DNA of 64,000 nucleotides from an uncultured Gammaproteobacteria bacterium (lineage in GTDB: Bacteria > Patescibacteriota > Microgenomatia > Levybacterales > UBA12049). The position numbers and the translations under genes are program-made. The notes below the pieces were generated by a model that was not told the origin of the DNA, did not search any database, and worked only from the letters and a program-made list of their open reading frames with translations. This document shows, one piece after another, positions 13,406 through 63,244 of the stretch. How positions within the stretch are numbered: the first letter of the stretch is position 1; the number at the start of each line of letters is the position of its first letter. The stretch spans positions 712,627-776,626 of the forward strand of contig OZ246394.1 of assembly GCA_965230895.1 (NCBI GenBank), given 5' to 3'.

Positions 13406-14593
13406 CTAGTTTCTTTGTCTGAGGAATGCTGGAATATCCCACTCGTCTTCAACGGATTTTTCGTCTTTCTTCTCTTGTGGAGGAGTTACATGTTGTTGTG
13501 GTTGTTCTTCGTCCTCATCATGATCTTTCTTTTCAGCTTGCTGATCATCCTGTTGTACAGGAGGTTGTGTACGAGTCAATGGAGTATCAGTAACTTGTGG
13601 AGTTGGCTGTTGGATAACAAATTGCTGAAGTCTTTGCTTTGCTTGATCAAATCCAGTTGCAACAACAGTAATGCGGATCTGATCGTGCATTGTTTCATCG
13701 ATAGTTGCACCGAAGATGATATTTGCATCAGGATCAGCTGCACTTGAGATAATCTTTGCTGCTTCATCAACTTCAGTCATAGTCAGATCATTACCACCGA
13801 CAACATTGAAGAGAACTCCTCGTGCGCCTTCCATTGAAATTTCTAACAATGGTGATGCGATAGCAGACCGTGCTGCTGTCTGGGCTCGATTTTCGCCGAT
13901 ACCACTGCCGATACCCATAAGGGCTGAACCGGCATCGGACATAATATTCCGGACATCGGCGAAATCGACATTGATAAGACCTGGTTGTGTAATAATTTCA
14001 GAGATACCTTGGACACCTTGCGTAAGGACAGAATCAGCTACTTTAAATGCGTCAAGTAAACTGAGTTTGCGATCAACTACATCAAGAATTCTCTGATTTG
14101 GGATCACGATCAATGTATCGACTTTATCCTTTAAATTATCAATACCTTCTTCTGCACTCACCATTCGTCGAGTTCCTTCAAACATAAATGGCTTAGTAAC
14201 AACTGCGACTGTTAAAGCTCCAATTTCTTTAGCTATTTCAGCAACAACAGGAGTTGCGCCCGTTCCAGTACCACCGCCCATACCAGCAGTAAGAAAGACC
14301 ATATCTGATCCTTCAAGAGCGCTTTTAATCTTGTCTCGTGATTCTTCTGCAGCTTGACGACCAATTTCAGGATCTCCTCCAGAACCAAGACCCTTGGTGA
14401 AGATTTCTCCGATTTGGATTTTAGTATCTGCCTTATTGAGAAGAAGTGCTTGTGCGTCTGTATTAACTGCTACGAAGTCTACGCCGTGGATGCTCCCACT
14501 TGAAATCATTGAGCCGATAGCATTACTACCACCGCCACCTACACCCATGACACGAATTTTTGCGAAGTTAGTTGATTGTGGACGAATTAACAT
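13406..14593 (-). CDS. ftsZ: Cell division GTPase FtsZ
   Basis: The tubulin signature '[13 protein letters not shown]' and the 'GVGGGGSNA' motif are present. The C-terminal tail is acidic and Q/P-rich. Confidence 0.9.
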
Positions 14594-14736
14594 AGTCTTG
14601 TGGGCTGGTCAAATCCTACCAAATCTAATTCAGGTTTGCAAGAAGGAAATGAGTATATTCTTGCTTCAGACTGAAAATATTTTTGTAACGTAGGCTCAAA
14701 AGAATTTCTGTTCAAAAAATGTGCTAGAAGAAAAGA

Positions 14737-16017
14737 TTATGGAATGAAGCTTTTAACGAGATTGATAACTTTCTTTACAACTTTGGATGCGCCGCCATTT
14801 CCTGCCGGCATTGAGAATCGTGATGTTGTCCGCGCTGGTGCATTTCCAATCCCATAGCGTATTAACCCAACCGCTGTAGAGAATGCTGGATGTTGAACTT
14901 CATCAATAATTCCTTTGACATCTGTTGGCATCCCGATACGGACTGGCATCGCGAGTGATCGACGAGCTGATTCTCGAAGCCCTACTGTTAAAGCACCTCC
15001 GCCAGTGAAGACAATGCCTGCTGGAGTTTGTGCTGCAAAACCACTCTTTTTGATTTCAAGTCCGATCATTGTACAAATTTCATTGAGTCTTGGTCTGATG
15101 ATGCCATCAACGAGAGTTTTCTGGGAGACTTTTCGGATTTCTTCTTGAAGATTGAGTGGAGTTAGATCTACTTCGTCTGATGGTTTACTGCTCGCTTCAT
15201 CGTCTCCTTCGCGAACAGTTCTTTTATTTTGATTCTGTGAGAAGAAGAGTTTGATCTTTTCAGCACTCTCAAGTGAGATACGAAGTCCGATTGCAAGATC
15301 ATTGGTTACATGTCGAGCACCAATTGCGAGAACAGATGAATAGGCAACTGATCCTTCAGTGTAGATTGAAATGTCTGTTGTACCCGCTCCAATATCAACG
15401 AGAATAACACCAAGTTCTTTTTCTGTATCTGAAAGAACAGCAAGTGAACTTGCATAACCGCTAAATGCAAAACTATCAATATCGACACCAACTTCAGAGA
15501 AAGCTTTCTCAAGATTTCGGAGAGAAACACTATTTGCAGTAACAATATGAGTATCAACTTCCAATCGAGTCCCTGACATACCAACTGGATCTTTGATACC
15601 TTCTTGTCCATCAACGATATAATTTCGTGGAAGGACGTGGATAATGTCTCGCGTTGAAGGGATAGAAATTGCTTTGGCAGCATCGATAACTCTTTGAAGA
15701 TCACTTTCGGAGATTTCGCCATTTGGTGTAGCGACTGCGACAACGCCACGAGAATTTTGACAGTCAATTTGACTGCCTCCAAGGGAGACAAGGACATGAG
15801 ACGCAGAATATCCAGCCATTCGTTCTGCAGCTTCGAGTGAAGCATTGATTGCATGAACAGCTTCTTCAATATCTACTACTTGTCCTTTTCTAATACCTTG
15901 TGATTTAACTTCGGAAACACCGAGGACGTTAACGACATTGTCTATGACCTTTGCTATGACAGTAACGATTTTGTATGTTCCTACATCTATTGCAACAAGA
16001 ATTTTTCCTTCGTTCAT
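14737..16017 (-). CDS. ftsA: Cell division protein FtsA (actin-like ATPase)
   Basis: 'VAIDVGTYKI' is the phosphate-1 motif and 'LVDIGAGTTDISIY' the phosphate-2 motif. The gene is directly upstream of ftsZ. Confidence 0.85.
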   Translation of the reverse strand: MNEGKILVAIDVGTYKIVTVIAKVIDNVVNVLGVSEVKSQGIRKGQVVDIEEAVHAINASLEAAERMAGYSASHVLVSLGGSQIDCQNSRGVVAVATPNGEISESDLQRVIDAAKAISIPSTRDIIHVLPRNYIVDGQEGIKDPVGMSGTRLEVDTHIVTANSVSLRNLEKAFSEVGVDIDSFAFSGYASSLAVLSDTEKELGVILVDIGAGTTDISIYTEGSVAYSSVLAIGARHVTNDLAIGLRISLESAEKIKLFFSQNQNKRTVREGDDEASSKPSDEVDLTPLNLQEEIRKVSQKTLVDGIIRPRLNEICTMIGLEIKKSGFAAQTPAGIVFTGGGALTVGLRESARRSLAMPVRIGMPTDVKGIIDEVQHPAFSTAVGLIRYGIGNAPARTTSRFSMPAGNGGASKVVKKVINLVKSFIP

Positions 16018-16024
16018 AATCTCA

Positions 16025-16468
16025 TCATTTGAGCACGATTACGGGCTTTTCAAAACGCAAATCCAACCGTGAAAACAGCTTACCTTCCATTGTAAGGTGT
16101 GAAAGGATGAATTGTAAAGAGGCTATTTGCGCTATTATATCCTTTTGCGACGAAAAAGTCACGAGGCCGCCCTGCTTTAATTCTACCACGAAATCCTCAT
16201 CTTCTGTCTTCTCAATTTTTGTATATGCAATGTGTTCTTTTTCTAATCCTTTCTTTAATGATTCAAGCTTATTGTCTTTCGTACTTGCTTGTACAAATTT
16301 CATACTCGCAAGAGGACTAACAAAGAGAGGCTTATTCATTTGTGCTGTGAAAACATAGAATGTTCCCCCTGCAACTGCTGTAACTCCTCCAAGGATAATT
16401 AAACAAAAAATGAGAATCTTTTTTGCATATCGCTTTTGTTTGCGATCAATTGTGTTTATCTTTTTCAT
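16025..16468 (-). CDS. FtsQ/DivIB-like short cell-division protein (N-terminal TM plus a small periplasmic domain)
   Basis: It is 147 aa with a single N-terminal TM helix. It occupies the canonical ftsQ position between murG and ftsA. Its sequence is weakly conserved. Confidence 0.35.
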   Translation of the reverse strand: MKKINTIDRKQKRYAKKILIFCLIILGGVTAVAGGTFYVFTAQMNKPLFVSPLASMKFVQASTKDNKLESLKKGLEKEHIAYTKIEKTEDEDFVVELKQGGLVTFSSQKDIIAQIASLQFILSHLTMEGKLFSRLDLRFEKPVIVLK

Positions 16469-17570
16469 GTTGTACTACCTCAATTATTTTTTCTGCAGCG
16501 TCTTTGTTGATTAACTCTCGCGTGACCATAGCATGACCTTTGTATGTTTCAAGATTCATTATCATTTCATTGACTTTTTCTGCAAATAATTCAGGAGTTA
16601 AATTATCTTGATCGTACGTCTCGCCCAAACCAGTACTTTGGACAAATTCAGCATTTGTTTGTTGTTCATTCCGTTGACCATATGGTAATGGTATAAGCAA
16701 GCAAGGTTTTCCAAGATATAAAATTTCACTTACGGTACTGATGCCAGAGCGAGAAATGATCAGATCAGCATTGAGCATAACTGAAACAACTTGATTTGCT
16801 GGAATAAATTTTGTTACTTCATAACGCTTTTGCAAATGTTCAGGCAATTTTAATTTCCGATCAACCAATCTGTCATAATCTCCAAACTCTTGTGCATTCC
16901 CTGTTTGATGGATGATCAAATATTTATCCAAAAGTTTCTCAAGCGCACCTTCAACTAAAAGATTAATGCCATGTGCACCACCGCTGCCTCCTGTTATATA
17001 CAAGAGTGGTACCTTACCGTTTGAACGACGTTCTGAGTCATCAGCGTGCGCGAAGAATTCTTTGCGTAAAGGATTACCAGTCAAAACCAATTTATCATGA
17101 GGGAAAAACTGCTCAGAATATTTCCAAGAAATACAGATTTTATTTGCGAACTTGCTAGCTAATTTATTTGCCAACCCTGCTTGCAAAGTCTGTTCATGAA
17201 CTACAAGAGGAATTCTCTTTGCTTTTGCTGCAAGAGCAATTGGAACTGCTACGTAACCACCAAATGATAGAACAACGTCTGGCTTAAAATCATTAAGGAT
17301 TTGCGTCGCTTGCTTTAATCCACCGGGAATCTTAAGGAGAGAACTAAATGTATGAGCAGAAACCTTTCGCTGTAGCCGTCCGGTATTCAACGGAATAAAC
17401 GGCAAACCCATTTTCTGCGCGGTTTGGTATTCAAATGATAAAGCATCATCACCTTCAAATGCATGTTTTCGACCGACGAGGAGATAATCCCATTCTTTAG
17501 GAAGTTTATCAATAACAGCGAGCGCAGGTGCAAAATGCCCACCTCCACCAGCCACGATAAGAAGTTTCAT
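16446..17570 (-). CDS. murG: Undecaprenyl-PP-MurNAc-pentapeptide UDP-GlcNAc transferase MurG
   Basis: The N-terminal G-rich loop 'AGGGGHFAPALAV' is present. A GT28 C-terminal domain reads 'ITGGSGGAHGIN'. Confidence 0.8.
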   Translation of the reverse strand: MKLLIVAGGGGHFAPALAVIDKLPKEWDYLLVGRKHAFEGDDALSFEYQTAQKMGLPFIPLNTGRLQRKVSAHTFSSLLKIPGGLKQATQILNDFKPDVVLSFGGYVAVPIALAAKAKRIPLVVHEQTLQAGLANKLASKFANKICISWKYSEQFFPHDKLVLTGNPLRKEFFAHADDSERRSNGKVPLLYITGGSGGAHGINLLVEGALEKLLDKYLIIHQTGNAQEFGDYDRLVDRKLKLPEHLQKRYEVTKFIPANQVVSVMLNADLIISRSGISTVSEILYLGKPCLLIPLPYGQRNEQQTNAEFVQSTGLGETYDQDNLTPELFAEKVNEMIMNLETYKGHAMVTRELINKDAAEKIIEVVQHEKDKHN

Positions 17571-18295
17571 GTAATAAGTATATCATTCTGAAGCCAGTTC
17601 AGCATAATACGAGTAAATTCTGCTTTTTGTTTTACTGTTTTCAAACTATGCTCTGCACTTTGTATCACTTCATAAGAAAGATTCTTTTTATTTGAAACTG
17701 CGTTCATATAGTTTTCCATTGTCTGATGAGGACAGATGACATCCAGTTCAGATTCAATGATCAGGACTTTTCCGGCAAAATCATGTATTGCACGCAATGA
17801 TTGTGTATCTTTCCATGATAATTTTTCTTTTCGCCATGCTGTCGTTTTGGCATTGGCATACTTTACTTGAGGAAGATTAAAGCCTTCATCAGGATATTGT
17901 GCAGGAACTCGAAGAGCTAACCACGAAACATCTCTGCGCGATGTGAGAATCGTTGCAAGATACGATCCAAAGCTTGAACCAATGACGCCAATTTTTGTTG
18001 CATCAATATCCTTTTGGGAAGCCAATAAATCATACGCTGCTTCCATATCGTCCATATAATCCTCCCGCGACAATTTCCCTCTTTCTCCTTCACTTGAACC
18101 ATGACTTCGCAAGTCAAACGTCATAACAATAAACCCGAGCTTTATTAAAGCTTGCGCAAATATAATGTTCCCTTTTTGACTACTCATCCATCCATGAACC
18201 ATCAAAATTGCAGGATTTTTATCTTTATGACTTTGCGGATATTGGATCGTAGCCGATAGCTTTTGGCTATCAACAGAAAACGTTATTTCCTTCAT
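17567..18295 (-). CDS. Alpha/beta-hydrolase fold protein
   Basis: 'ILMVHGW' begins the fold, with the nucleophile elbow 'GSSFGS' (GxSxG) and a C-terminal His. Confidence 0.6.
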   Translation of the reverse strand: MKEITFSVDSQKLSATIQYPQSHKDKNPAILMVHGWMSSQKGNIIFAQALIKLGFIVMTFDLRSHGSSEGERGKLSREDYMDDMEAAYDLLASQKDIDATKIGVIGSSFGSYLATILTSRRDVSWLALRVPAQYPDEGFNLPQVKYANAKTTAWRKEKLSWKDTQSLRAIHDFAGKVLIIESELDVICPHQTMENYMNAVSNKKNLSYEVIQSAEHSLKTVKQKAEFTRIMLNWLQNDILIT

Positions 18296-18313
18296 AGAAA
18301 AAATTATAACAAA

Positions 18314-19417
18314 CTATGATTTTGATTGTTTGGAGATATTAAGAAGTATTCCAATCGCTGCCAAATCGACAATGAGTGCAGAACCTCCATAGGAAATAAA
18401 CGGGAGAGGAACACCTGTTAATGGAACTAATGCAGTCATCGCCGCAAGATTAATGACACATTGAATACCAATGAACGAAATAATTCCTCCAGCAAGAAGT
18501 TTGCCAAAAGCATCTTTTGCACGAGAAGCAATATAAAGACAACGCCAGATAAAAGCTGCAAAAACAAATACCAAAACAATTGATCCAATGAATCCAAATT
18601 CCTCTGCAATAATTGGGAAAATTGAATCAGTTACATTTTCTGGAAGATAGGCATATTTTTGGATAGAATTTCCGACACCCAATCCAAATAATCCACCTGA
18701 GCCAAGAGCAATTAATATCTGTTTTACGTGATATGACGTATCGTGAAGTGATCCACCAAGATTAAGAAAGCTTGTTAAACGAGCCATGCGATAAGGTTCT
18801 GAAATAACATAGAAGAACCCACCAATTGCCACTACAGGAGCCATAAAGAAAAAGTACATGATATTACCGCCGGAAAGATAATAGATAATTAATGCTTCAA
18901 ACATAATAATCGAACCAGTACCCAAATCGGGTTGCATCAATACTAAAAACATAATCGAACCCATCAACAAAATAAACGCACCAAATCGTCCTTTTTCTTT
19001 TTGAGAGAACCACGCGGCAAGATAGATTGCCAATGCTAGTTTGATAAACTCAGCAGGTTGCACAGAAGTAAATCCTAAGTTAATCCACCGGCTTGCACCC
19101 AATGCATGTGTACCGATCCCTGGAACGAATACGAGAATGAGCAATCCAATTGCAGTAATGAGCAAAGGAACGGCAAGGTTATAGAACCTGTGATAATCGA
19201 ATTTGTACGTAAGAAACAATGCAGTAAAACCTAAAACACACCACACAACCTGATCTCGAATAAAGCCATATTTGTCACCAAAGAGATTGTAAGCAATTAC
19301 TGATGAGGAATTAAATATCATGAGCAGACCGAATAAGGTCAAAGCTGTAACAATACTAAATAAAACAATATCAAATTTCCCTGTGGAAACTTTTCTGAGC
19401 TTGAATCGTGCTTTCAT
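18314..19417 (-). CDS. ftsW: SEDS peptidoglycan glycosyltransferase FtsW
   Basis: 'PENVTDSIFPIIAEEFGFIG' and 'LTGVPLPFISYGGSALI' are SEDS signatures. The dcw context supports the FtsW assignment. Confidence 0.8.
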   Translation of the reverse strand: MKARFKLRKVSTGKFDIVLFSIVTALTLFGLLMIFNSSSVIAYNLFGDKYGFIRDQVVWCVLGFTALFLTYKFDYHRFYNLAVPLLITAIGLLILVFVPGIGTHALGASRWINLGFTSVQPAEFIKLALAIYLAAWFSQKEKGRFGAFILLMGSIMFLVLMQPDLGTGSIIMFEALIIYYLSGGNIMYFFFMAPVVAIGGFFYVISEPYRMARLTSFLNLGGSLHDTSYHVKQILIALGSGGLFGLGVGNSIQKYAYLPENVTDSIFPIIAEEFGFIGSIVLVFVFAAFIWRCLYIASRAKDAFGKLLAGGIISFIGIQCVINLAAMTALVPLTGVPLPFISYGGSALIVDLAAIGILLNISKQSKS

Positions 19418-19432
19418 CGGGCAGAATGGATA

Positions 19433-20437
19433 CTAAACTAATGCAATGAATATACCAAGTATCGCCAAGAGGAATCCAAGTAACCATGCACGCATTACAA
19501 TTTTTGGTTCTTCCCAACCCTTTTTAAGGAAATATAAATGCAAAGGAGCAACAGGAAGAAGCTTGCGACCAAGATATTTTTTCCCAAGCAATTGAATAAG
19601 AGACGAAGCGATTTCGATAACAAAGATTCCTCCGATAATCATAAGTGCAAATACTTTACCGGTCAGAAGTCCAGTTACCGCAAGCGCTGCACCTAACGAA
19701 AGCGATCCAACATCTCCCAGCCAAATACGTGCTTTGTAAATATTGAAGTATAAAAAGGCAGAAACACTCCCAATTAAAATTGCTAGAAAGATTCCGAGAG
19801 GTTGATCAAGTGTTACAGAATTAATTGCTAAGAATGCAAGCAAACAAATAATGAGTAACCCAGATGCTAAACCATCTAACCCATCAGTAATGTTAAATGC
19901 GTTAACAAAAGAGACAATGATAAATGCGGCAAAAGGAATAAAGAACATACCAAGGAACATTTGTCCTACTCCGTGGATAAAGATAAAGTTATATCCTAAC
20001 TGGAAATAAAAGACCCATGCAATAATAAGCGCAAGAATCCACTGAATAATAAATTTGTGTCTAAAACGAAGTCCGAAGAACTTTTCTTTCCCCGGAACCA
20101 TTTTCTTCAGATCGTCATAGAATCCAAGGATACCAAAGCTGACAAATGAGAAGAGGATCACAAAGACTTCCCAAGGATTACTCTTAATATTGAATATACC
20201 GTATGCCCACAAAGACCAGATCAGAACGACAACAATAATAAGAAGTCCGCCGCCGTATGGAGTTCCTGCTTTCCATGAATTAAATTTATCAAAAAGAGGT
20301 GTACGATTATCAAACATGTCTTTTGTAACCTGCTTTTGTCGACGAAGTTTGATCCGGTAGAGGAAGTCGATAAACGGCACAAGCAAGATTGCCGTGACGA
20401 AAGCAGACGATAGCATAAGCCCTAATAGTCGTATCAT
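19433..20437 (-). CDS. mraY: Phospho-N-acetylmuramoyl-pentapeptide transferase MraY
   Basis: 'KAGTPYGGG', 'NAFNITDGLDGLA' and 'DVGSLSLGAALA' are the MraY cytoplasmic-loop motifs. 10 TM helices. Confidence 0.85.
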   Translation of the reverse strand: MIRLLGLMLSSAFVTAILLVPFIDFLYRIKLRRQKQVTKDMFDNRTPLFDKFNSWKAGTPYGGGLLIIVVVLIWSLWAYGIFNIKSNPWEVFVILFSFVSFGILGFYDDLKKMVPGKEKFFGLRFRHKFIIQWILALIIAWVFYFQLGYNFIFIHGVGQMFLGMFFIPFAAFIIVSFVNAFNITDGLDGLASGLLIICLLAFLAINSVTLDQPLGIFLAILIGSVSAFLYFNIYKARIWLGDVGSLSLGAALAVTGLLTGKVFALMIIGGIFVIEIASSLIQLLGKKYLGRKLLPVAPLHLYFLKKGWEEPKIVMRAWLLGFLLAILGIFIALV

Positions 20438-20482
20438 TGCTACAATTATACTCTAAATTGCTTAAAATAGTAAATTGTTGTG

Positions 20483-20950
20483 TTATTGTGAGGTTTCTCC
20501 GCCGTAATTGAAGATCATTCTATACACATTTGTCTCTCTTTTTTGAAAGCCTAATTTCTCATATAAATTATTTGCGGAGTTTCGGTCAGAACGTGAAGTA
20601 CAGTCAGCATAAGCAGCTCCATTATCTTTTGCAAAGGCAATTGCATGTTTCATAAGAGTAGCACCCAACCCATGGCCACGATACTCTGCATCAACAATAA
20701 GATCTTCAAAATATGCTTTGCGGACATATGGAATCCTGTAGAGTAATACAAGAATCATTCCGATTATTGTGCCATTAGCATTCTTTGCAACAAATAAATT
20801 ATGCATAGGCGAGGCAATCATTTCTTCCACATCTTCATTGCTTAAATCTTGATAATTAGTCCCTATTTGTTTGGCAAGGTTTCGAAGTGAGTCAGCAGTT
20901 TCAGAAGAAAGAGAATCTAAACGTGTGATGGAAAACGTATTTTGACCCAT
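20483..20950 (-). CDS. GNAT acetyltransferase (small, GNA1-like pattern)
   Basis: The motif A 'LIVDAEYRGHGLGATLM' is followed by 'LYEKLGF'. The protein is 155 aa. Confidence 0.6.
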   Translation of the reverse strand: MGQNTFSITRLDSLSSETADSLRNLAKQIGTNYQDLSNEDVEEMIASPMHNLFVAKNANGTIIGMILVLLYRIPYVRKAYFEDLIVDAEYRGHGLGATLMKHAIAFAKDNGAAYADCTSRSDRNSANNLYEKLGFQKRETNVYRMIFNYGGETSQ

Positions 20951-20955
20951 ACGGA

Positions 20956-21726
20956 TTATTCTTTTGGCTCATTTGCCTTAATACTTTGATATAAGTTTTC
21001 CGCTTCTTGAAGTTCCTCTGGAGTATTTACTCCACGCCATGGAATTTCAACTTGAATCGTTTCTATTGTTTCACCCTGTTGCGCTGCGAGTTCAATCAAG
21101 CTAACAATATAATATTCACCAGTGACTGGGCTTTTCTTAATCTTCTTAAGATATTTTTTCAAAAATGCTGATGAGAAGAAATAGCATGCAGCATTAATTT
21201 CCTGAATTTTTCTCTGCTCTTCGGTTGCATCTTTTTCTTCAACGATTGAAGTAACTTTGCCATCTTTATCTCGGACAACGCGCCCTAAACCAAAAGGATT
21301 TGGAAGCTTTACCGTCAAAAATGTGACTGCAGCCTGACTATCAATATGTTTTGCAGCAAGTTGTGAGATTACTTCCTTTGTATAAAATGCAGAATCATCT
21401 CCATTGATAACTAAAACATCAGACACATGTTCTGGAACTTTTTTAAAACCGCTTGCTACTGCATGCGCTGTTCCAAGACGTTTTGTCTGCTCTGCAAAAA
21501 TAATATGTTTGTCGTCTTTCAATACTTCTTTAACAGATTCTTTTGCAAAACCGACCACAACAATAATGGAATCAAAGTACATATGTTCAAGAAGATCAAT
21601 CGAATGCTTAACAAGAGGTTTGTTCGCCAATTGAAAGGTCACTTTGTTCATGCCCTTTGCCTTCATGCGTTTTCCTCTTCCAGCCGCTAAAACTATGGCT
21701 CCTAAATTTCTTTTTTCTTTTGTCAT
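20956..21726 (-). CDS. Sugar-1-phosphate nucleotidyltransferase resembling the GlmU N-terminal uridylyltransferase domain. No LbH acetyltransferase domain is attached.
   Basis: 'GAIVLAAGRGKRMKAKGMNKVTFQLANKPLVKHSI' matches the GlmU 'LAAGKGTRM..PKVL..LAGKPM..H' pattern. The ORF ends at 256 aa. Confidence 0.6.
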   Translation of the reverse strand: MTKEKRNLGAIVLAAGRGKRMKAKGMNKVTFQLANKPLVKHSIDLLEHMYFDSIIVVVGFAKESVKEVLKDDKHIIFAEQTKRLGTAHAVASGFKKVPEHVSDVLVINGDDSAFYTKEVISQLAAKHIDSQAAVTFLTVKLPNPFGLGRVVRDKDGKVTSIVEEKDATEEQRKIQEINAACYFFSSAFLKKYLKKIKKSPVTGEYYIVSLIELAAQQGETIETIQVEIPWRGVNTPEELQEAENLYQSIKANEPKE

Positions 21727-23054
21727 TCTTCTTCAGTAACCCTTTCAATTGCTGCACCTAATTTGGTGAAACGAGTTTCAAAAGCTTCATATCCACGATC
21801 AAGCTTTTCAATACCAAAAATTGTCGATGTTCCTTTTGCTGCAAGTGCTGCTAAAACGATTGCTGCACCTGCTCGGATATCAAGTGTTGTCATTACCGCG
21901 TTATGCAAAGTGTTTGGACCTGTGATCTTTACTGCATGAAAATATTCTGGTTTGTCATCATCCAAATTATAATTATATACGGATTCAGGATCGCTCACTT
22001 CAGGATTAAATAGTTTTACTTTTGCACCCATTCGCTTAAGATCTTTTACGTAACCAAGTTTGTTTTCAAAAACAGTTTCGTGGATTATTGCTTCACCTTC
22101 TGCTTGAGTCATAAGAATCGCCCAAGGTGCCTGCCAATCAGTAAGGAATCCAGGATGAATTCCCGTTTCAACATCGACAGCCTTTAAGGTGCCATTCGCA
22201 AAGAACCGAATTCCATCCTCTTTCATTTCGTACCCAGCGCCAGTTGCTTTATACTTTTCCATGAATGCATCAATATTTGCTTTATGAGCATCTTTAACAA
22301 AAATATCTCCCCCTGTTATCACTGCGGCAATTGCAAATGTCGCAACTTCGATACGATCTGGACTGATAGTAACTTCAGCTCCATGAAGTTTTTTCGCACC
22401 GACAATTGTAATCTGACGATGTCCTGTACGCTTTACATTTCCACCCATTTGATTAATACATTCGATAACATCATTAATTTCAGGTTCTTCAGCGGCATTT
22501 TCAAGAACAGTTGTACCCTCAGCAAGTGCAGCTGCGATAATCATTGTTTCAGTTCCTGTGTGAGTACTCTTGGGGAAATGATAGTCGGACGCTTTCAGGC
22601 CATTTGTTTTTGCGTGAAAATAACCATCTTCACTGTGATAGGTAACCTCAACTTGCAGCTTTCCAACTCCTTCAACTGTTCTATCAATAGGCCGTGCACC
22701 AAGTCTACAACCGCCTGGATTTGGGATAATTGCTTCACCTGTTCGTGCAAGAAGTGGACCGATAAACATTGAAGAAGTTCGAGCACGTGCAGCTTTATCA
22801 AGAGGAATTGATGAATGAGCAAAAGCCTTCATCTGAACTGTAACCGTATGATCTTCGAGTTTCACATCAGCTCCAAGATCTTTCATGATATCTAACATTA
22901 CGAAGACATCAGCAATAAGAGGAACATTATGGATAATCACTTGCTCATCCGTGAGGCAAGCAGCTACAAGTACTTTTAATGCAGCATTTTTTGCTCCAGA
23001 AATACCTATTTCCCCTTGCAACTTATTTCCACCTTTAATTACAAATTTTTCCAT
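21723..23054 (-). CDS. murA: UDP-N-acetylglucosamine 1-carboxyvinyltransferase MurA
   Basis: The start 'KFVIKGGNKLQGEIGISGAKNAALKVL', the active-site region 'NPGGCRLGARPID', and the 443 aa length all fit MurA. Confidence 0.85.
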   Translation of the reverse strand: MEKFVIKGGNKLQGEIGISGAKNAALKVLVAACLTDEQVIIHNVPLIADVFVMLDIMKDLGADVKLEDHTVTVQMKAFAHSSIPLDKAARARTSSMFIGPLLARTGEAIIPNPGGCRLGARPIDRTVEGVGKLQVEVTYHSEDGYFHAKTNGLKASDYHFPKSTHTGTETMIIAAALAEGTTVLENAAEEPEINDVIECINQMGGNVKRTGHRQITIVGAKKLHGAEVTISPDRIEVATFAIAAVITGGDIFVKDAHKANIDAFMEKYKATGAGYEMKEDGIRFFANGTLKAVDVETGIHPGFLTDWQAPWAILMTQAEGEAIIHETVFENKLGYVKDLKRMGAKVKLFNPEVSDPESVYNYNLDDDKPEYFHAVKITGPNTLHNAVMTTLDIRAGAAIVLAALAAKGTSTIFGIEKLDRGYEAFETRFTKLGAAIERVTEEE

Positions 23055-23060
23055 AATTAT

Positions 23061-23762
23061 CTAATTTTTTCTTTCCGCCTCTTCTCTTCTCCACGCAACT
23101 GCTTCTTCTCCACGCGCCCATAAAACCTTCTTATCAGCAGGTGTTAATTTAAACGCTGCTGAAAGTATAACATCATTTGTTTCTTCCCACTCCCCATCAG
23201 TATATACAAAATGTGGCATTTGTCCATTATACGTTTGGATCTCGCCATTTTCATGCAAGATCCGTACTGATTGTAACACTTTACTAACAGGCAAATATTT
23301 TGGAATATATTTTGCATTGGTAGAGATTGCTCCACCAACAGTTCCCGGCAAACCTAATTGATATTCAAGCCCAGCAAGTCCCTCCTCAATAGTAAATCGG
23401 ACGAGCTGATTCATGTTCACACCTGATTCTGCATAGACAAGTATTTCTTGTACCCCCATCTGGCTTTGTTTGATGGAACCCTTCATACTCGCTTTATCAA
23501 ACCGTCGACAGTTATTTTTAATAACGAGTCCAGGCAAATCTTTTCCAGATTCTATTCTAGCACCACTCCCAAGTATTCGAACAGGGATTTTAAAATTTTG
23601 TGCTGCTTTAATAATCGTTACAAGCTCATTAATCGTATCAATTTCAAGGTATAACTCCACGTTGATATCAGCTTTTGTGATGGTATGTGTTGCCAATGAT
23701 TCGTTTTGCTTTACCCGTTTTTCTCCAATTAATTCTACAATCTTCCGTATGCTATCTGTCAT
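23061..23762 (-). CDS. murB: UDP-N-acetylenolpyruvoylglucosamine reductase MurB, short form. The ORF track start at 23804 overlaps murC; the internal ATG at MTDSIRK is more likely.
   Basis: The FAD-binding region 'PVRILGSGARI' and 'GLAGLEYQLGLPGTVGGAISTNAKY' are MurB motifs. Confidence 0.7.
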   Translation of the reverse strand: MTDSIRKIVELIGEKRVKQNESLATHTITKADINVELYLEIDTINELVTIIKAAQNFKIPVRILGSGARIESGKDLPGLVIKNNCRRFDKASMKGSIKQSQMGVQEILVYAESGVNMNQLVRFTIEEGLAGLEYQLGLPGTVGGAISTNAKYIPKYLPVSKVLQSVRILHENGEIQTYNGQMPHFVYTDGEWEETNDVILSAAFKLTPADKKVLWARGEEAVAWRREEAERKN

Positions 23763-25173
23763 AAAAAGCCAATTTTGTGTGGATCGTGTAGATATCGCCT
23801 GCACCCATGGTTACAAGAACCGTATCTGATCGAAACTTGTTTTCGTTGATATATTTTACCACATCGTCCAAATTCTCAAGGTAAATTACTTCTTTATGAT
23901 GGTTACTTATTCCTATTGCTAATTGTTTTGAAGAAACACTTGGATCAGGTTTTTCTCGTAGTGATGCGTAAATATCTGTAAGGACAATTGTATCTACATC
24001 TTCGAAAACACGCAAGAAATCATTAAATAATTGCTTTGTTCGGGAATATGTATGAGGTTGAAAAAAGCACACAATTTTTTTCTTTGGATATTGCTTACGC
24101 AACGCTCCAAGAGTTTTCTTGATTTCTGTAGGATGATGCGCATAGTCATCATATACTTTCGCACCAGTTTGTAATTCCCCAATATATTCCAAACGGCGCT
24201 TTGAACCTTGAAACGCCAATAATCCTTTCCGTACCTTTTCAATAGACAATCCAACTTCTAAAGAAACGATTATTGCCGCAAGTGCATTGAGCGCATTGTG
24301 TTCTCCAGCGACACGAATCGCAAACTCGCCCAATGGAACACCGTACGATTTTACCCAAAAGAATGTTTGATCACCTGAGATCGTTGCGCGTTCTAAAATA
24401 TAATCATTACCAGCACCAAAACCATATGTGACTGCTTTCCGATCAAATTCTTTCAAGAGCATTCGAACTTCAGGATCGTCACCACAGGCAATGAGCAAAC
24501 CTTTAGGAGGTAAATTATTTGCAAACTCAAGAAACGTAGAACGTACTGCATCAGTTGAAGGATAAATATCAGGATGATCGTGCTCAATATTTGTGAAGAC
24601 GGCAAAAGTCGGATGCTGCCAAAGGAACCGAGCACGTCGATCGTGGACCGGTTCAGTAGCATACTCATCAGCTTCTGCTACAAAATATCTCCCTTTTCCA
24701 AGATAACCAGGAACACCAAGTGATTTTACGTCACCGGTTCCAATAATATATGACGGATCCATTCCATTCTCTTTCAAAACAGTTGCGATCATTGCAGTTG
24801 TTGTGGTTTTACCATGTGTTCCAGCAACCGAAATTCCAGTAAATTGTTCACCGAGGATTTCTCCTTTCATAAATGCACCTGTTGCCTCACCTGCCGACAT
24901 AACTGGTATTTTTTTAAGCTTTGCTGCATGGACTTCAATATTGTCATAGCCACCATGCGCACCTGTGGTAATAACAAAGTCAGGACTCTCGACATGTTCT
25001 GCTGCAAATCCTTTGAAGGGGGTAATGTTTGCTTTCTTTAGTGCGGCATCAGTAATGAATTCTTGATCAACATCTGAGCCAGTTACTTCATATCCTGCTG
25101 ATTTTGCAATCAGAGCAAGCGGCATCATATTTGTCCCTTTGATGCCTACAAAATGTATATGCTTCTTTTTCAT
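23752..25173 (-). CDS. murC: UDP-N-acetylmuramate--L-alanine ligase MurC
   Basis: 'IHFVGIKGTNMMPLALIAKSAGYEVTGSD' is the N-terminal Rossmann domain. 'VAGTHGKTTTTAMIA' is the P-loop, and 'EADEYATEP' follows. Confidence 0.85.
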   Translation of the reverse strand: MKKKHIHFVGIKGTNMMPLALIAKSAGYEVTGSDVDQEFITDAALKKANITPFKGFAAEHVESPDFVITTGAHGGYDNIEVHAAKLKKIPVMSAGEATGAFMKGEILGEQFTGISVAGTHGKTTTTAMIATVLKENGMDPSYIIGTGDVKSLGVPGYLGKGRYFVAEADEYATEPVHDRRARFLWQHPTFAVFTNIEHDHPDIYPSTDAVRSTFLEFANNLPPKGLLIACGDDPEVRMLLKEFDRKAVTYGFGAGNDYILERATISGDQTFFWVKSYGVPLGEFAIRVAGEHNALNALAAIIVSLEVGLSIEKVRKGLLAFQGSKRRLEYIGELQTGAKVYDDYAHHPTEIKKTLGALRKQYPKKKIVCFFQPHTYSRTKQLFNDFLRVFEDVDTIVLTDIYASLREKPDPSVSSKQLAIGISNHHKEVIYLENLDDVVKYINENKFRSDTVLVTMGAGDIYTIHTKLAFYDR

Positions 25174-25886
25174 AATAAACTTATAACACTAATGAATAAA
25201 CTATTTCTATCGCCTCTCCTGTATGAATAAAAACGTTTATCATGCAGCGTGCAAATATCTGAGATAGCAATATTTTCTTCAAGTATACCTTCTGCAAGCA
25301 GGTTTTGCAGGGCAACATTGCGTAGATCTAAATAGTATTTTCCATCTTTTTCTTCATATATATTTTTATATGTAGGGAATGTCTGTTTAAATTCAGTAAT
25401 AATCTCCTCGCTTACTTCATAACAATCTCTTTCGATACTTGGCCCGATACCCACAATAATATCATTCGGGTTGGAATCAAATGTAGCTTCGAAAGCGGCA
25501 ATTGTCTTAGTCAAAATGCCCGCAGACAATCCCCGTCTTCCAGCGTGAACTGCTCCAATAGCCTGTTTTTCAGGATCATAGAAAAAGACAGGCAGACAAT
25601 CGGCAGTTTTTATTGCTAAAGGTAATCCTTTCTTATTCGTAATCATTCCATCAGTCTGAGGAATCACTAACTCTCTATCGTTTTCAATTATTGCGATGTT
25701 CGTTCCATGAACTTGTCGCATACTGATCGGCATCTTAGGGAAATTTTGATCTTTAGCAAATTTCAATAAGTTCGCAGAATGAACGTCCCCATTTTCTTTT
25801 TTCATTGATCCAAATGCTTGTGTGGAGATTGCGTGCGATATTGCTGTGTAATCTGAAAAAATATCCAATTTTAAAACAGTATTCAT
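25170..25886 (-). CDS. pgeF: PgeF/YfiH-family protein (DUF152 purine nucleoside phosphorylase / peptidoglycan editing factor)
   Basis: 'MRQVHGTNIAII', 'TADCLPVFFYD' and 'GAVHAGRRG' are the YfiH/LACC1-family motifs. Confidence 0.7.
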   Translation of the reverse strand: MNTVLKLDIFSDYTAISHAISTQAFGSMKKENGDVHSANLLKFAKDQNFPKMPISMRQVHGTNIAIIENDRELVIPQTDGMITNKKGLPLAIKTADCLPVFFYDPEKQAIGAVHAGRRGLSAGILTKTIAAFEATFDSNPNDIIVGIGPSIERDCYEVSEEIITEFKQTFPTYKNIYEEKDGKYYLDLRNVALQNLLAEGILEENIAISDICTLHDKRFYSYRRGDRNSLFISVISLL

Positions 25887-27130
25887 AAAAGCTTTCTCTC
25901 TTGTAAAGCAGTTTTTGCGGTTTCATTCTCATCCCAAGGTTCTTCACCGTTTCCGTAATTTATCGATTTTTCGTGACCTTTTCCGGTCATGATCACAACA
26001 TCACCTCGGCCTGCTATCTTAATAGCAAAATGAATTGCTTCTTTACGGTCTTTAATAATGAATACATATTTTTGTCCGCTTTTCAGGCCTCCACTTGAAG
26101 CAATCAATGTATGATCATGTACAATTTCAAAACGCTTATCGGTAATTCCTTTAAGAATTTCTGAATTAATATGGTCGATTGGCTCAGTTCTTGGATCTTC
26201 TGCTGTAACAACTATTACATCAGCATATCTTGATGATATCTTCCCCATTTCTGGCCTTTTGTATGTGTCTCTTTTTGCAGCTGCTCCAAAGACATGTATC
26301 AAACGATTCTTCGTAAGCTTTTTCACTTCCGGCAAAATCTCTGCAAAAGAATTTGGTGTATGGGCAAAATCATTAATTACCATGAAATCTTTTTTGTAAA
26401 GAATTTCTTGACGACCGGTTGGAGCTTTAAAGGTAGCAATTCCTTTTCGTATCAATTCTTCTGGAATATGTAATTGTTGCAAAGCAGTAATTGCAGCAAG
26501 ACAATTATATTTATTAAATTGTCCAAGCAATTTTGTCGTAAATTGAAATGTGTGAGGATTTACATCTGAATCCTTTTTCAATCCATATGTAATAATCTCT
26601 TCTTTACCTTTCAATTCTTTCTTCCGAATTTGCCAATATGAATGATCATCTTTATTCACTACTGCAACTTTTGCAGCACGGAGGAGTTTGGACTTCACAT
26701 GGACATAATTTTCATAGGTTTTATGATAATCCAAATGCTCTTTGGTCACATTGGTAATGACACCGACATCGAAATGAACTCCAGCAACACGATGCTGGTC
26801 TAAAGCGTGGGATGTCACTTCAAGAACAACATATTGCACGCCTTCACTTTTTGCTTTACGCAGATAGGATTGGAGAGCAAATCTTCCCGGAGTTGTTACA
26901 TGAAAACCGATATCACTAGCGTCACCGTTAATAATGGCGCCATTTGACGAAATTAAAGCAGCTTTATATCCGGCAGTAATTAAGCTGTGATAAATCAGAC
27001 TTGATGTCGTGGTTTTACCATCGGTTCCCGTTACACCTATAACCGTCATTCCACGTGCCGGGAAACGATACATTACATTGGCAATAATTGCTTGTCCTAA
27101 ATGATAAATGTTTTTAGTCTTTTGCCACAT
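25883..27130 (-). CDS. murE: Mur ligase, MurE-like (UDP-MurNAc-L-Ala-D-Glu--diamino acid ligase). It is short (415 aa) and appears to lack most of the N-terminal domain.
   Basis: 'VIGVTGTDGKTTT' is the P-loop. 'NVTKEHLDYHKTYENY' matches the MurE 'DHLDYHG' box. A C-terminal Mur ligase domain is present. Confidence 0.6.
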   Translation of the reverse strand: MWQKTKNIYHLGQAIIANVMYRFPARGMTVIGVTGTDGKTTTSSLIYHSLITAGYKAALISSNGAIINGDASDIGFHVTTPGRFALQSYLRKAKSEGVQYVVLEVTSHALDQHRVAGVHFDVGVITNVTKEHLDYHKTYENYVHVKSKLLRAAKVAVVNKDDHSYWQIRKKELKGKEEIITYGLKKDSDVNPHTFQFTTKLLGQFNKYNCLAAITALQQLHIPEELIRKGIATFKAPTGRQEILYKKDFMVINDFAHTPNSFAEILPEVKKLTKNRLIHVFGAAAKRDTYKRPEMGKISSRYADVIVVTAEDPRTEPIDHINSEILKGITDKRFEIVHDHTLIASSGGLKSGQKYVFIIKDRKEAIHFAIKIAGRGDVVIMTGKGHEKSINYGNGEEPWDENETAKTALQERKLL

Positions 27131-61370: not shown

Positions 61371-61378
61371 AGTGAGAA

Positions 61379-62521: not shown

Positions 62522-62532
62522 ATGTTGCTTGA

Positions 62533-63243: not shown

Positions 63244-63244
63244 A

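What the first reader, a model, noticed from the sequence alone, without database searches (positions are those of the whole stretch)
20483..21726. GlmU-like uridylyltransferase lacking its LbH acetyltransferase domain, followed immediately by a small GNAT (eukaryote-like GNA1/UAP split?)
Bacterial GlmU is bifunctional, with an LbH acetyltransferase C-domain. Here the nucleotidyltransferase ORF ends at 256 aa and the next gene is a 155 aa GNAT. Its motif A region (FEDLIVDAEYRGHGLGATLM...LYEKLGF) is reminiscent of glucosamine-6-phosphate N-acetyltransferase GNA1 (IEDIAVNSKYQGQGLGKLLI...FYEKCGF). This may be a two-gene replacement of GlmU in which acetylation is done by a GNAT, as in eukaryotes.
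Basis: inference. Interest (0 to 1): 0.5.

Follow-up and report, generated by a model that had tools for sequence, protein, structure and literature searches.

The report
GNAT replaces GlmU's acetyltransferase half
In this candidate-phyla (Patescibacteria) genome the cell-wall enzyme GlmU has only its first half, and the gene slot where relatives keep the missing acetyltransferase half holds an unrelated small GNAT acetyltransferase, so this GNAT is a concrete, testable candidate for the "unidentified acetyltransferase" of bacteria that lack a complete GlmU.

Summary
On the minus strand, inside a division/cell-wall (dcw) cluster, murA is followed by a 256-aa GlmU uridylyltransferase-only gene and, 5 nt later, a 155-aa GNAT, then mraY.

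The short GlmU keeps all the catalytic residues I mapped and belongs to a large patescibacterial family of about 250-aa proteins with no LbH domain.

The main evidence is comparative. In relatives, the slot after murA–short glmU holds one of two things:
- a stand-alone LbH acetyltransferase, or a full archaeal-type GlmU (3 distinct loci, one from Ca. Levybacteria);
- this GNAT (18 distinct loci).

No locus has both. The slot is often followed by a HAD gene and glmS. The GNAT also sits beside glmS in loci where short glmU is not adjacent.

The closest characterised homologue is *Cryptosporidium* GNA1, a GlcN-6-P N-acetyltransferase. Its catalytic Tyr, a sugar-binding Thr and a phosphate-binding Arg are conserved, but GNAT-superfamily similarity does not diagnose substrate.

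Best reading (about 0.62): non-orthologous, in-place displacement of the GlmU acetyltransferase by a GNAT acting on glucosamine phosphate.

Caveats:
- There is no biochemistry.
- The GNAT evolves about 13 times faster than its partner.
- Homologues in other phyla lie in unrelated contexts.
- An LbH gene elsewhere in this genome is not excluded.

The uridylyltransferase is bacterial GlmU-type, not eukaryotic UAP-type.

The parts
21723..23054 (-). murA (UDP-GlcNAc enolpyruvyl transferase), the first consumer of UDP-GlcNAc. Its stop overlaps the start of the short glmU.
   Evidence: Pfam EPSP_synthase 262 bits; overlap read from the sequence.
20956..21726 (-). Short GlmU: the N-terminal GlcNAc-1-P uridylyltransferase domain only (256 aa). 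It ends at about E. coli GlmU residue 250, before the LbH domain.
   Evidence: TIGR01173 glmU 206.6 bits over profile 3-241/452; no Hexapep. Alignment to E. coli GlmU (1hv9/1fwy) conserves R18, K25, Q76, G81, D105, G140, E154, N169 and N227, which are R20, K28, Q80, G85, D110, G148, E163, N178 and N234 here. 2366 homologues were found, and the best 120 are all 203-270 aa without LbH.
20483..20950 (-). 155-aa GNAT acetyltransferase, the proposed glucosamine-phosphate N-acetyltransferase. It carries the AcCoA motif R91-G-H-G94-L-G96 and the family-invariant residues K78, D83, T118, R123, N127, Y130 and R144.
   Evidence: Pfam PF00583 63.6 bits. AF2 model pLDDT 91.3. Top Foldseek hit is 6yug, C. 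parvum GNA1. Invariant residues. Synteny.
20445..20474 (-). Promoter-like site (TTTACT-18-TATAAT) in the 45-nt spacer between the GNAT and mraY.
   Evidence: Consensus scan, 10 of 12 matches. The number of sites in the region is not above chance, so this is weak evidence.
19433..20437 (-). mraY, the downstream neighbour. In relatives, a HAD gene and/or glmS lie between the acetyltransferase gene and mraY.
   Evidence: Pfam Glycos_transf_4; comparison of loci.
13406..27130 (-). The surrounding dcw cluster: murE-like, yfiH-like, murC, murB (short), murA, glmU-N, GNAT, mraY, ftsW, alpha/beta hydrolase, murG, ftsQ-like, ftsA, ftsZ.
   Evidence: ORF list and Pfam; the same order in sister contigs.

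Best explanation
The organism is a member of the Patescibacteria; the nearest named relatives are Candidatus Levybacteria. It makes UDP-GlcNAc with a split, hybrid enzyme set.

The 256-aa protein is a monofunctional GlmU-type uridylyltransferase: GlcNAc-1-P + UTP -> UDP-GlcNAc + PPi.

In E. coli the preceding N-acetylation is done by GlmU's C-terminal LbH domain. In most related Patescibacteria it is done by a separate, archaeal-type LbH protein encoded right after the short glmU. Here it is done by the 155-aa GNAT that occupies that same slot. This is non-orthologous gene displacement in place.

The GNAT would transfer acetyl from acetyl-CoA to the 2-amino group of a glucosamine phosphate. 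Y130 would act as the general acid for the CoA thiolate. T118 and D83 would hold the sugar. Conserved basic residues (K78, R123, R144) would hold the phosphate.

Which phosphate ester is used is not resolved:
- Homology to C. parvum GNA1 favours GlcN-6-P. That gives the eukaryote-like order and needs a mutase that accepts GlcNAc-6-P.
- Simple replacement of a GlcN-1-P-specific LbH favours GlcN-1-P.

What is shown: domain content, intact uridylyltransferase residues, the synteny pattern and the structural similarity. What is inferred: the GNAT's substrate and its role in the pathway.
For: 1. murA, short glmU and the GNAT are tightly packed (4-nt overlap, then a 5-nt spacer) inside the dcw cluster.
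2. The same order occurs in 18 distinct patescibacterial loci.
3. In the same slot, other Patescibacteria carry an LbH gene instead. L178 has a stand-alone 214-aa LbH that matches the acetyltransferase half of archaeal GlmU (TIGR03992 positions 214-391, 172 bits). L179, a Ca. Levybacteria assembly, has a 216-aa LbH. L009 has a full 417-aa Arch_glmU-type protein.
4. Of 34 held loci with murA and short glmU, 24 have the GNAT, 6 have LbH, 4 have neither and none has both. Some of these are duplicate contigs of one lineage, and the GNAT count is inflated because many loci were fetched by their GNAT.
5. The stand-alone LbH is a large family: 780 clusters, with the best 120 nearly all 199-221 aa. 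None of the best 120 lies on the 1.61, 1.52 or 1.32 Mb contigs that carry the GNAT.
6. Downstream of either kind of acetyltransferase come the same HAD family and glmS. The GNAT stays next to HAD and glmS in L013 and L017, where short glmU is not adjacent, and lies beside glmS in L084 and in a Parcubacteria locus, L090.
7. The uridylyltransferase residues, including N169 of E. coli GlmU, are invariant across 28 short GlmUs that include GNAT-type, LbH-type and neither-type lineages. The uridylyltransferase therefore probably takes the same acetylated substrate in all of them.
9. CpGNA1's T117, Y127 and R141, and its R73/K74 pair, align with T118, Y130, R144 and R77/K78 here. Residue roles are taken from PMC7587441; conservation is.
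Against: - There is no biochemical or genetic test, and substrates of GNATs cannot be read reliably from sequence or fold.
- Uncharacterised GNATs (1z4e, 2dxq, 1vkc), a putative streptothricin acetyltransferase (3pp9), polyamine acetyltransferases and N-terminal protein acetyltransferases score about as well as GNA1.
- Two of the six mapped CpGNA1 substrate residues are not conserved (H81 -> D83, R113 -> Y114).
- Against a sister strain the GNAT is only 56.8% identical (dN 0.33, dN/dS 0.19). GlmU-N, MurA and MraY are 95-97% identical (dN 0.025-0.04). That is weak constraint for a sole essential enzyme, although FtsQ also shows dN/dS 0.15.
- Family members at 35-42% identity in Bacteroidota, Verrucomicrobiota, Acidimicrobiia and Chloroflexota sit in contexts with no amino-sugar genes, such as thioredoxin/AhpC and ECF sigma genes. 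Rare fusions are to HPPK or YbaK-like domains.
- No GlmU-N-GNAT fusion appears among the 150 best representatives of the GNAT family.
- Three distinct relatives have short glmU with no acetyltransferase next to it. The acetyltransferase can therefore be encoded elsewhere or be missing, so an LbH gene elsewhere in this genome is not excluded.
- The window contains no glmS, glmM or HAD gene.
- C. canimorsus shows that a monofunctional GlmU can simply mean GlcNAc auxotrophy (PMC4358021).
Confidence: 0.62

Rival explanations
1. GlcNAc salvage. The organism, probably an epibiont or symbiont, takes up GlcNAc or GlcNAc-containing fragments. It needs only a kinase, a mutase and the monofunctional uridylyltransferase. 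The GNAT has another job (protein, polyamine or small-molecule acetylation) and merely rides in the operon.
For: - C. canimorsus has a monofunctional GlmU and is a natural GlcNAc auxotroph. 30 of 45 Bacteroidetes genera were reported with monofunctional orthologues (PMC4358021).
- The window has no glmS or glmM.
- Some relatives have short glmU with no adjacent acetyltransferase.
- The GNAT evolves fast.
- Generic GNATs score as well as GNA1.
Against: - In relatives glmS is encoded in the same operon as the GNAT, so GlcN-6-P is made de novo and must be acetylated.
- The slot alternates with a bona fide GlmU-type LbH acetyltransferase.
- A hitch-hiking gene would not be expected to keep this exact position in 18 distinct loci while diverging to about 40-45% identity.
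Confidence: 0.18
2. The GNAT acetylates a different cell-envelope precursor. Candidates are UDP-GlcN (after uridylylation of GlcN-1-P), another NDP-amino sugar, free GlcN or de-N-acetylated muropeptides (GlmA-like recycling), or an amino group of the peptide stem.
For: - GNATs acting on nucleotide-amino sugars and on glucosamine are known (WecD and PseH from my own knowledge).
- The C. acetobutylicum GlcN N-acetyltransferase 5kf1 and the fungal 4zm6 region appear among the structural hits.
- DegT-type aminotransferases and FemAB genes lie near the cluster in several relatives.
Against: - The residues of short GlmU that correspond to E. coli substrate-binding residues are invariant whether the partner is a GNAT or an LbH. 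This argues that acetylation precedes uridylylation.
- The window has its own DegT plus WecD-like GNAT pair 40 kb away for NDP-amino-sugar acetylation.
- The LbH that alternates with the GNAT matches the GlmU/Arch_glmU acetyltransferase (172 bits), not the PglD/NeuD type (22 bits).
Confidence: 0.12
3. The GNAT is a RimI-like protein N-terminal acetyltransferase, or an antibiotic or toxin-modifying enzyme (aminoglycoside or streptothricin type).
For: - The top NCBIfam names are rimI, AAC(6') and streptothricin acetyltransferases.
- Naa30, Naa60 and RimI structures are among the top fold hits.
- The fast evolution fits an accessory gene.
Against: - All these hits are far below the curated cut-offs: rimI 42.1 against 86.4, AAC(6') 36.8 against 140.
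- The NJ tree of the family largely follows taxonomy in several phyla (no bootstrap), unlike sporadically transferred resistance genes.
- The conserved position next to glmU and glmS is unexplained by this reading.
Confidence: 0.06

Closest known systems
Bifunctional bacterial GlmU (E. coli; TIGR01173)
   Same: The N-terminal uridylyltransferase domain is homologous, with about 130 bits to the E. coli GlmU structures. The catalytic and substrate-binding residues I mapped are kept. It lies next to murA and supplies the same pathway.
   Different: The protein stops at about residue 250 of E. coli GlmU, so there is no LbH acetyltransferase or trimerisation domain. Acetylation must come from another protein.
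Split GlmU of Patescibacteria: short GlmU plus a stand-alone archaeal-type LbH (about 212 aa) or a full Arch_glmU (TIGR03992)
   Same: Same short GlmU family, same position after murA, and the same downstream HAD and glmS genes in relatives.
   Different: Here, and in 17 other distinct loci, the LbH gene is replaced by a GNAT, a different fold. No LbH gene lies within the 64-kb window.
Apicomplexan-type glucosamine-6-phosphate N-acetyltransferase (C. parvum GNA1, PDB 6yug)
   Same: Small single-domain GNAT. It is the best characterised match by sequence and fold, at 25-27% identity over nearly the full length. The catalytic Tyr, the sugar-binding Thr, the C-terminal Arg and an R/K pair are conserved.
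   Different: CpGNA1 H81 and R113 are not conserved. An extra invariant Arg (R123) sits in a 2-residue insertion. The similarity is no greater than to several uncharacterised GNATs. The partner enzyme is GlmU-type, not UAP. The substrate is unknown.
Canonical eukaryotic GNA1/UAP1 pathway (yeast GNA1, 1i12)
   Same: Acetylation by a GNAT that is separate from the uridylyltransferase. It shares an E-D pair in strand beta4 and a catalytic Tyr.
Monofunctional GlmU of Capnocytophaga canimorsus (GlmUCc) and the truncated GlmUs noted in the S. aureus NagU preprint
   Same: A uridylyltransferase without an acetyltransferase domain. The preprint explicitly infers an 'unidentified acetyltransferase' for species with only the N-terminal domain.
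   Different: C. canimorsus lacks the activity and is an auxotroph. Here a candidate acetyltransferase is encoded in the adjoining gene, and glmS is in the operon in relatives.

Membership tests
Bifunctional GlmU (TIGR01173) | N-terminal GlcNAc-1-P uridylyltransferase domain with the LxxGxGxRM...K signature and the Q76, D105, E154, N169 and N227 equivalents | tested here: met
   Alignment to 1hv9/1fwy conserves all of these residues. They are invariant in 28 short GlmUs.
Bifunctional GlmU (TIGR01173) | C-terminal left-handed beta-helix (hexapeptide) GlcN-1-P acetyltransferase domain in the same polypeptide | tested here: not met
   Only profile positions 3-241 of 452 match. The score of 206.6 is below the cut-off of 366.85. 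There is no Hexapep hit. The next gene starts 5 nt after the stop.
GNAT superfamily (PF00583) | GNAT fold with the acetyl-CoA pyrophosphate-binding motif R/Q-x-x-G-x-G/A | tested here: met
Apicomplexan-type GNA1 (CpGNA1, 6yug) | Substrate and catalytic residues R73, H81, R113, T117, Y127 and R141 (PMC7587441) | tested here: inconclusive
   Four of six are kept by alignment: R73/K74 -> R77/K78, T117 -> T118, Y127 -> Y130, R141 -> R144. Two are not: H81 -> D83, R113 -> Y114.
Apicomplexan-type GNA1 (CpGNA1, 6yug) | Sequence or fold similarity that is specific, meaning clearly better than to other GNATs | tested here: not met
Canonical eukaryotic GNA1 | Significant, specific sequence similarity to GNA1 orthologues | tested here: not met
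GNA1 (any type) | Acetyl-CoA:GlcN-6-P N-acetyltransferase activity, with a dimer whose active site is shared between the two subunits | not testable with these tools
   This needs an enzyme assay, complementation, or a complex model or structure.
RimI (TIGR01575) | Score at or above the curated equivalog cut-off | tested here: not met
   42.1 bits against a cut-off of 86.4. The same holds for five family members from other phyla.
Patescibacterial split UDP-GlcNAc module (murA / short glmU / acetyltransferase / [HAD] / [glmS]) | Short glmU directly after murA, with an acetyltransferase gene in the next position | tested here: met
   The window and 17 other distinct loci carry the GNAT. Three distinct loci carry LbH.
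Patescibacterial split UDP-GlcNAc module (murA / short glmU / acetyltransferase / [HAD] / [glmS]) | HAD and glmS downstream of the acetyltransferase gene | tested here: not met
   In the window the GNAT is followed directly by mraY. There is no HAD (c7 family) or glmS hit anywhere in the 64 kb. The closest relatives (L172, L176, L012, L088) also lack glmS at this position.

The most novel reading that the evidence does not exclude
This GNAT family is conserved in Patescibacteria, Bacteroidota, Verrucomicrobiota, Acidimicrobiia and Chloroflexota, with the signature T-S-x-x-x-R-x-x-x-N-x-x-Y ... N-x-Y-R. It could be the general 'missing' glucosamine-phosphate N-acetyltransferase of bacteria that have only a monofunctional GlmU- or NagU-type uridylyltransferase.

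That would make it a bacterial counterpart of GNA1. Many lineages now scored as lacking the UDP-GlcNAc pathway, or assumed to be GlcNAc auxotrophs, would then make it de novo. The family might also be related to the ancestor of the apicomplexan GNA1 family.

The putative substrate-binding residues are invariant or nearly so in the 21 Patescibacteria and 63 other sequences compared. The NJ tree largely follows taxonomy. The function is therefore likely to be the same in all of them, whatever it is.
Probability: 0.35. Interest if true: 0.85.

Novelty: new variant of a known kind. Interest (0 to 1): 0.65.

Why it matters
GlmU is treated as universal and essential in bacteria and is an antibiotic target.

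Three papers report bacteria with only the uridylyltransferase half or with no recognisable pathway:
- the 2026 NagU preprint, which infers an "unidentified acetyltransferase";
- Renzi et al. 2015 on monofunctional GlmU in most Bacteroidetes genera;
- the 2020 glycan-alphabet survey, which found no UDP-GlcNAc pathway in the FCB group.

The missing activity is explained there either by an unknown enzyme or by auxotrophy.

This locus offers a specific candidate gene. The genomic argument is clean: a GNAT and an LbH alternate in one slot next to glmU and glmS. Simple experiments can test it.

If it is confirmed:
- metabolic reconstructions of Patescibacteria, and possibly Bacteroidota and PVC bacteria, would change;
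- it would be a further case of an essential step carried out by two unrelated folds;
- it would bear on how broadly inhibitors of the GlmU acetyltransferase can act.

Tried and rejected
1. Frameshift or pseudogene explanation. Rejected: the gene after the stop is a GNAT, not LbH-coding sequence, and the short form is a family of more than 2000 clusters.
2. Rosetta-stone fusions of GlmU-N with the GNAT. None appears among the 150 best of 385 strong representatives. The longer proteins are HPPK-GNAT, YbaK-GNAT or tandem GNATs.
3. Regex and HMM search of the window for glmS, glmM, LbH or HAD genes. Nothing was found. The 555-aa GATase protein at 33213-34880 is PurF-like, not GlmS.
4. Metagenome scan with the short-GlmU alignment, meant as an unbiased survey of the slot. 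It returned mostly ordinary full-length GlmUs and unrelated short nucleotidyltransferases outside dcw clusters. Only L092 and L094 were useful.
5. A search for an LbH gene on the same large contigs as the GNAT, by matching contig lengths in the LbH hit table. There was no match, but only the best 120 of 780 hits are listed, so this is a weak negative.
6. Foldseek against AFDB50. The library was not available.
7. Rfam scan of the window. No hits.
8. Amino-sugar genes near the GNAT homologues of other phyla. None within +/-10 kb.
9. Literature searches for a bacterial GNAT-type GlcN-phosphate acetyltransferase or for a description of GlmU in Patescibacteria. I found no such report in the open-access library. 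Subscription-only papers were not searched.
Full report
**What is in the sequence**

The finding's interval lies on the minus strand, inside a division/cell-wall (dcw) cluster at 13.4-27.1 kb. The gene order is: murE-like ligase, YfiH-like gene, murC, a short murB, murA (21723-23054), a 256-aa nucleotidyltransferase (20956-21726), a 155-aa GNAT (20483-20950), mraY (19433-20437), ftsW, an alpha/beta hydrolase, murG, a ftsQ-like gene, ftsA, ftsZ.

- The murA stop overlaps the start of the 256-aa gene.
- Five nucleotides separate that gene's stop from the GNAT's ATG.
- A 45-nt spacer with one promoter-like site precedes mraY.

G+C content is 31-42%. The nearest named relatives of the locus are Candidatus Levybacteria/Levyibacteriota and other members of the Patescibacteria group. 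The organism assignment is an inference from those relatives.

**The uridylyltransferase**

The 256-aa protein matches NCBIfam glmU (TIGR01173) at 206.6 bits, but only over profile positions 3-241 of 452. Pfam sees NTP_transferase and no hexapeptide repeats.

I aligned it to E. coli GlmU (1hv9, and the truncated 1fwy). The residue roles come from my own knowledge of the E. coli enzyme. It keeps R18, K25, Q76, G81, D105, G140, E154, N169 and N227 as R20, K28, Q80, G85, D110, G148, E163, N178 and N234. It ends at about E. coli residue 250, just before the beta-helix.

It is not an isolated truncation. 2366 database clusters match at E<=1e-10, and the best 120 (57-100% identity) are all 203-270 aa with no LbH domain.

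**The GNAT by itself**

It is a clear GNAT: PF00583 at 63.6 bits, with the motif R91-G-H-G94-L-G96. No curated NCBIfam model claims it. rimI is the top name at 42 bits against a cut-off of 86.4, and aminoglycoside and streptothricin acetyltransferase models are further below their cut-offs.

An AlphaFold2 model built on 45 homologues is confident (pLDDT 91.3).

How it compares with solved structures:

| Search | Result for C. parvum GNA1 (6yug) | Other leading hits |
|---|---|---|
| PDB sequence search | Second, E 6.3e-8, aligned over residues 21-147 | 1vkc best at 1.4e-8; canonical yeast GNA1 only E about 0.005 |
| Foldseek | First, E 1.8e-10, 27% identity | T. brucei and Arabidopsis GNA1, mixed with Naa60, Naa30 and RimI |
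| Family profile vs PDB | Fifth, but with the widest coverage | Uncharacterised and polyamine-type GNATs |

I used the published CpGNA1 residue roles (PMC7587441) and the alignment.

- Kept: T117, Y127 and R141, and the R73/K74 pair, correspond to T118, Y130, R144 and R77/K78 here.
- Not kept: H81 and R113 correspond to D83 and Y114.
- Family-wide conserved residues are K/R78, E82, D83, T118, S119, R123, N127, Y130, N141, Y143 and R144.

The number of conserved basic residues outside the CoA motif fits an anionic substrate. That is my inference.

Conclusion for this part: the protein is compatible with a sugar-phosphate N-acetyltransferase, and the nearest characterised enzyme is a GNA1. The similarity is not diagnostic.

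**The decisive evidence is comparative**

I fetched loci in two ways: through GNAT homologues, and through short-GlmU homologues. The second route is unbiased with respect to the GNAT.

Sister contigs reproduce the window's arrangement. In a 47%-identical relative the order is murA, short glmU, GNAT, a 156-aa HAD protein, glmS, mraY.

Relatives chosen only by their short GlmU show four arrangements:

| Arrangement after murA / short glmU | Loci |
|---|---|
| GNAT, then HAD, then mraY | L176 |
| GNAT, then glmS | L177 |
| Full archaeal-type GlmU (417 aa; TIGR03992, 274 bits), then HAD, then glmS | L009 |
| Stand-alone 214-aa LbH, then HAD, then glmS | L178 |
| Nothing before mraY | L007, L011 |

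The L178 LbH matches the acetyltransferase half of archaeal GlmU (TIGR03992 positions 214-391, 172 bits).

A Ca. Levybacteria assembly (GCA_001782015.1, L179) has murA, short glmU, a 216-aa LbH, and then an inositol-monophosphatase-like gene.

The stand-alone LbH is itself a large family. There are 780 clusters, and the best 120 are nearly all 199-221 aa. Several are named Ca. Levybacteria.

I scored all held loci with profiles. Of 34 loci with murA and short glmU:
- 24 have the GNAT (18 distinct lineages; this count is inflated by how loci were fetched);
- 6 have LbH (3 distinct);
- 4 have neither (3 distinct);
- none has both.

The window's 64 kb has no LbH hit.

The GNAT also stays next to HAD and glmS in L013 and L017, where short glmU is not adjacent. 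It lies beside glmS in L084, and in a Parcubacteria locus, L090, whose GNAT is only 35% identical.

So two unrelated acetyltransferase folds alternate in one slot. That slot lies between the enzyme that needs GlcNAc-1-P and the enzyme that makes GlcN-6-P. This pattern is what non-orthologous displacement in place would produce.

The uridylyltransferase residues are invariant across GNAT-type, LbH-type and neither-type lineages. The short GlmU therefore probably takes the same acetylated substrate everywhere. This disfavours a route through UDP-GlcN.

**Evidence that pulls the other way**

- Evolutionary rate. Against a sister strain (L172), synonymous sites are saturated for all genes (dS 0.7-2.4). 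GlmU-N, MurA and MraY are 95-97% identical (dN 0.025-0.04, dN/dS 0.011-0.026). The GNAT is 56.8% identical (dN 0.33, dN/dS 0.19). It is the fastest-evolving gene of the cluster, close to the alpha/beta hydrolase (0.19) and FtsQ (0.15). This holds across the clade: GNATs are 50-70% identical where GlmU-N is 75-97%. The gene is under purifying selection, with 13 invariant positions in 45 sequences, but the constraint is much weaker than on its partner.
- Distribution. The family is not confined to Patescibacteria. At least 558 relatives were found among species-representative genomes. They include Opitutales and other Verrucomicrobiota, Acidimicrobiia, Anaerolineae and many Bacteroidota, at 35-42% identity. 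Their neighbourhoods contain thioredoxin/AhpC-like, ECF sigma or URO-D-like genes. No amino-sugar gene lies within 10 kb.
- Fusions. There are no GlmU-N fusions. The rare fusions are to HPPK or a YbaK-like domain.
- Missing pathway genes. The window has no glmS, glmM or HAD gene.
- Auxotrophy is possible. A monofunctional GlmU can mean GlcNAc auxotrophy, as shown for C. canimorsus (PMC4358021).
- Not excluded. I could not scan the rest of this genome, so an LbH acetyltransferase elsewhere remains possible.

**Which substrate**

Homology to CpGNA1 mildly favours GlcN-6-P, because the residues that align with its C-terminal Arg and its R/K pair are conserved. That gives the order GlmS, GNAT, mutase, GlmU-N.

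Simple replacement of a GlcN-1-P-specific LbH domain favours GlcN-1-P, with an unchanged GlmM step.

Nothing I could compute separates the two.

**Relation to what is known**

- Bacterial GlmU is bifunctional.
- Eukaryotes use GNA1 (a GNAT, acting on GlcN-6-P), AGM1 and UAP1.
- Apicomplexa have an independently derived GNA1 family (PMC5838249).
- Renzi et al. 2015 found monofunctional GlmU orthologues in 30 of 45 Bacteroidetes genera and read this as auxotrophy.
- A 2020 survey found no recognisable UDP-GlcNAc pathway in the FCB group. It listed Bacteroides fragilis, Flavobacterium sp., Akkermansia muciniphila and some free-living bacteria among the organisms lacking it.

I found no paper describing the split GlmU of Patescibacteria, and none describing a bacterial GNAT in this role. 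The library searched is open-access only.

The GNAT family occurs in the Bacteroidota and in Verrucomicrobiota (a PVC phylum), the groups where those papers report gaps. It also occurs in Acidimicrobiia and Chloroflexota. Its putative substrate residues are invariant or nearly so in all of these phyla, and its NJ tree largely follows taxonomy (no bootstrap). This supports a bolder reading: the family could be the general missing acetyltransferase. That reading is untested here.

**Verdict**

The central idea, that a GNAT does the acetylation in place of the LbH domain, is the best-supported explanation (about 0.62).
- It rests on the slot-alternation and glmS-linkage evidence, not on the GNA1-like motif.
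- The arrangement is a hybrid: a bacterial GlmU-type uridylyltransferase with a GNAT acetyltransferase. It is not a eukaryote-like GNA1/UAP pair.
- I rate it a new variant of a known kind of system. It is of above-average interest because it turns an open question into a direct experiment.

Noticed in passing
Relatives: L004 8456-8926, L009 7994-8641, L019 10428-11087, L176 6197-6676, L178 6390-7052 and others; absent from the window: A HAD-type hydrolase family (156-241 aa, DxDxT motif) sits between the acetyltransferase gene (GNAT or LbH) and glmS in many patescibacterial loci. The best PDB matches are uncharacterised HADs (2p11, 2hoq). There are weak hits to N-acylneuraminate-9-phosphatase and to PpaX pyrophosphatase. 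In L179 an inositol-monophosphatase-like gene takes the same place. Its role in UDP-GlcNAc synthesis is unknown; a phosphatase, pyrophosphatase or mutase are possibilities.
   Followed up: partly
window 17567-18295 (-): An alpha/beta hydrolase (Hydrolase_4, Peptidase_S9 and DLH hits) is embedded between ftsW and murG. Similar genes recur in the same clusters of relatives (L011, L172, L177-L179). It evolves fast: 66.8% identity to the sister strain, where neighbouring genes are above 90%.
   Followed up: partly
window 23061-23804 (-): The murB here has only the FAD_binding_4 domain and no MurB_C. Several relatives (L004, L007, L009, L178, L179) have no murB between murC and murA at all. L177 has a 329-aa MurB with MurB_C.
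   Followed up: no
window 25883-27130 (-) and 25170-25886 (-): The murE-like ligase has Mur_ligase_M and Mur_ligase_C but lacks the N-terminal Mur_ligase domain. A YfiH/PgeF-like Cu-oxidase_4 gene lies between it and murC, and this is conserved in relatives.
   Followed up: no
window 60297-63949 (-): A glycan gene cluster that would consume UDP-GlcNAc: a glycosyltransferase-like ORF (my reading of the translation, not run through a tool), a DegT/WecE-like aminotransferase (61379-62521), a second, 236-aa GNAT whose N-terminus looks WecD-like by eye (62533-63243), and a UDP-GlcNAc 2-epimerase-family ORF (63245-63949). Further glycosyltransferase-like ORFs lie at 40-60 kb.
   Followed up: partly
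L092 6441-7427: In one relative the gene between short glmU and mraY is a 328-aa protein. Its N-terminus (IVVIGGGTGSF...DDGGSSGRLR) looks like the YvcK/CofD (GlmR) family, which in Bacillus regulates GlmS. I identified this by eye only, not with a tool.
   Followed up: no
L023, L037, L049, L062 and other Opitutales/Verrucomicrobiota loci; L022, L035, L051 (Anaerolineae): Outside Patescibacteria the same GNAT family has lineage-specific conserved neighbours. In Opitutales these are an AhpC/thioredoxin-domain protein, an unknown gene and an ECF sigma factor. In Anaerolineae they are a URO-D-like gene and a thioredoxin-TPR protein. The recurrence of thioredoxin-like neighbours in two phyla is unexplained.
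   Followed up: partly
P0272, P0314 (representatives of the GNAT family): There are rare fusions of the GNAT family to HPPK (folate synthesis) and to a YbaK-like aminoacyl-tRNA editing domain.
   Followed up: no
L093-L171 (metagenome loci): About 30 further GlmU-N-like proteins under 300 aa (33-42% identity) occur outside dcw clusters in diverse metagenome contigs. No GNAT of this family lies within about 6 kb of them, and only one (L168) has an adjacent archaeal-type GlmU gene. They may be monofunctional uridylyltransferases of other phyla or other sugar-1-P nucleotidyltransferases.
   Followed up: partly
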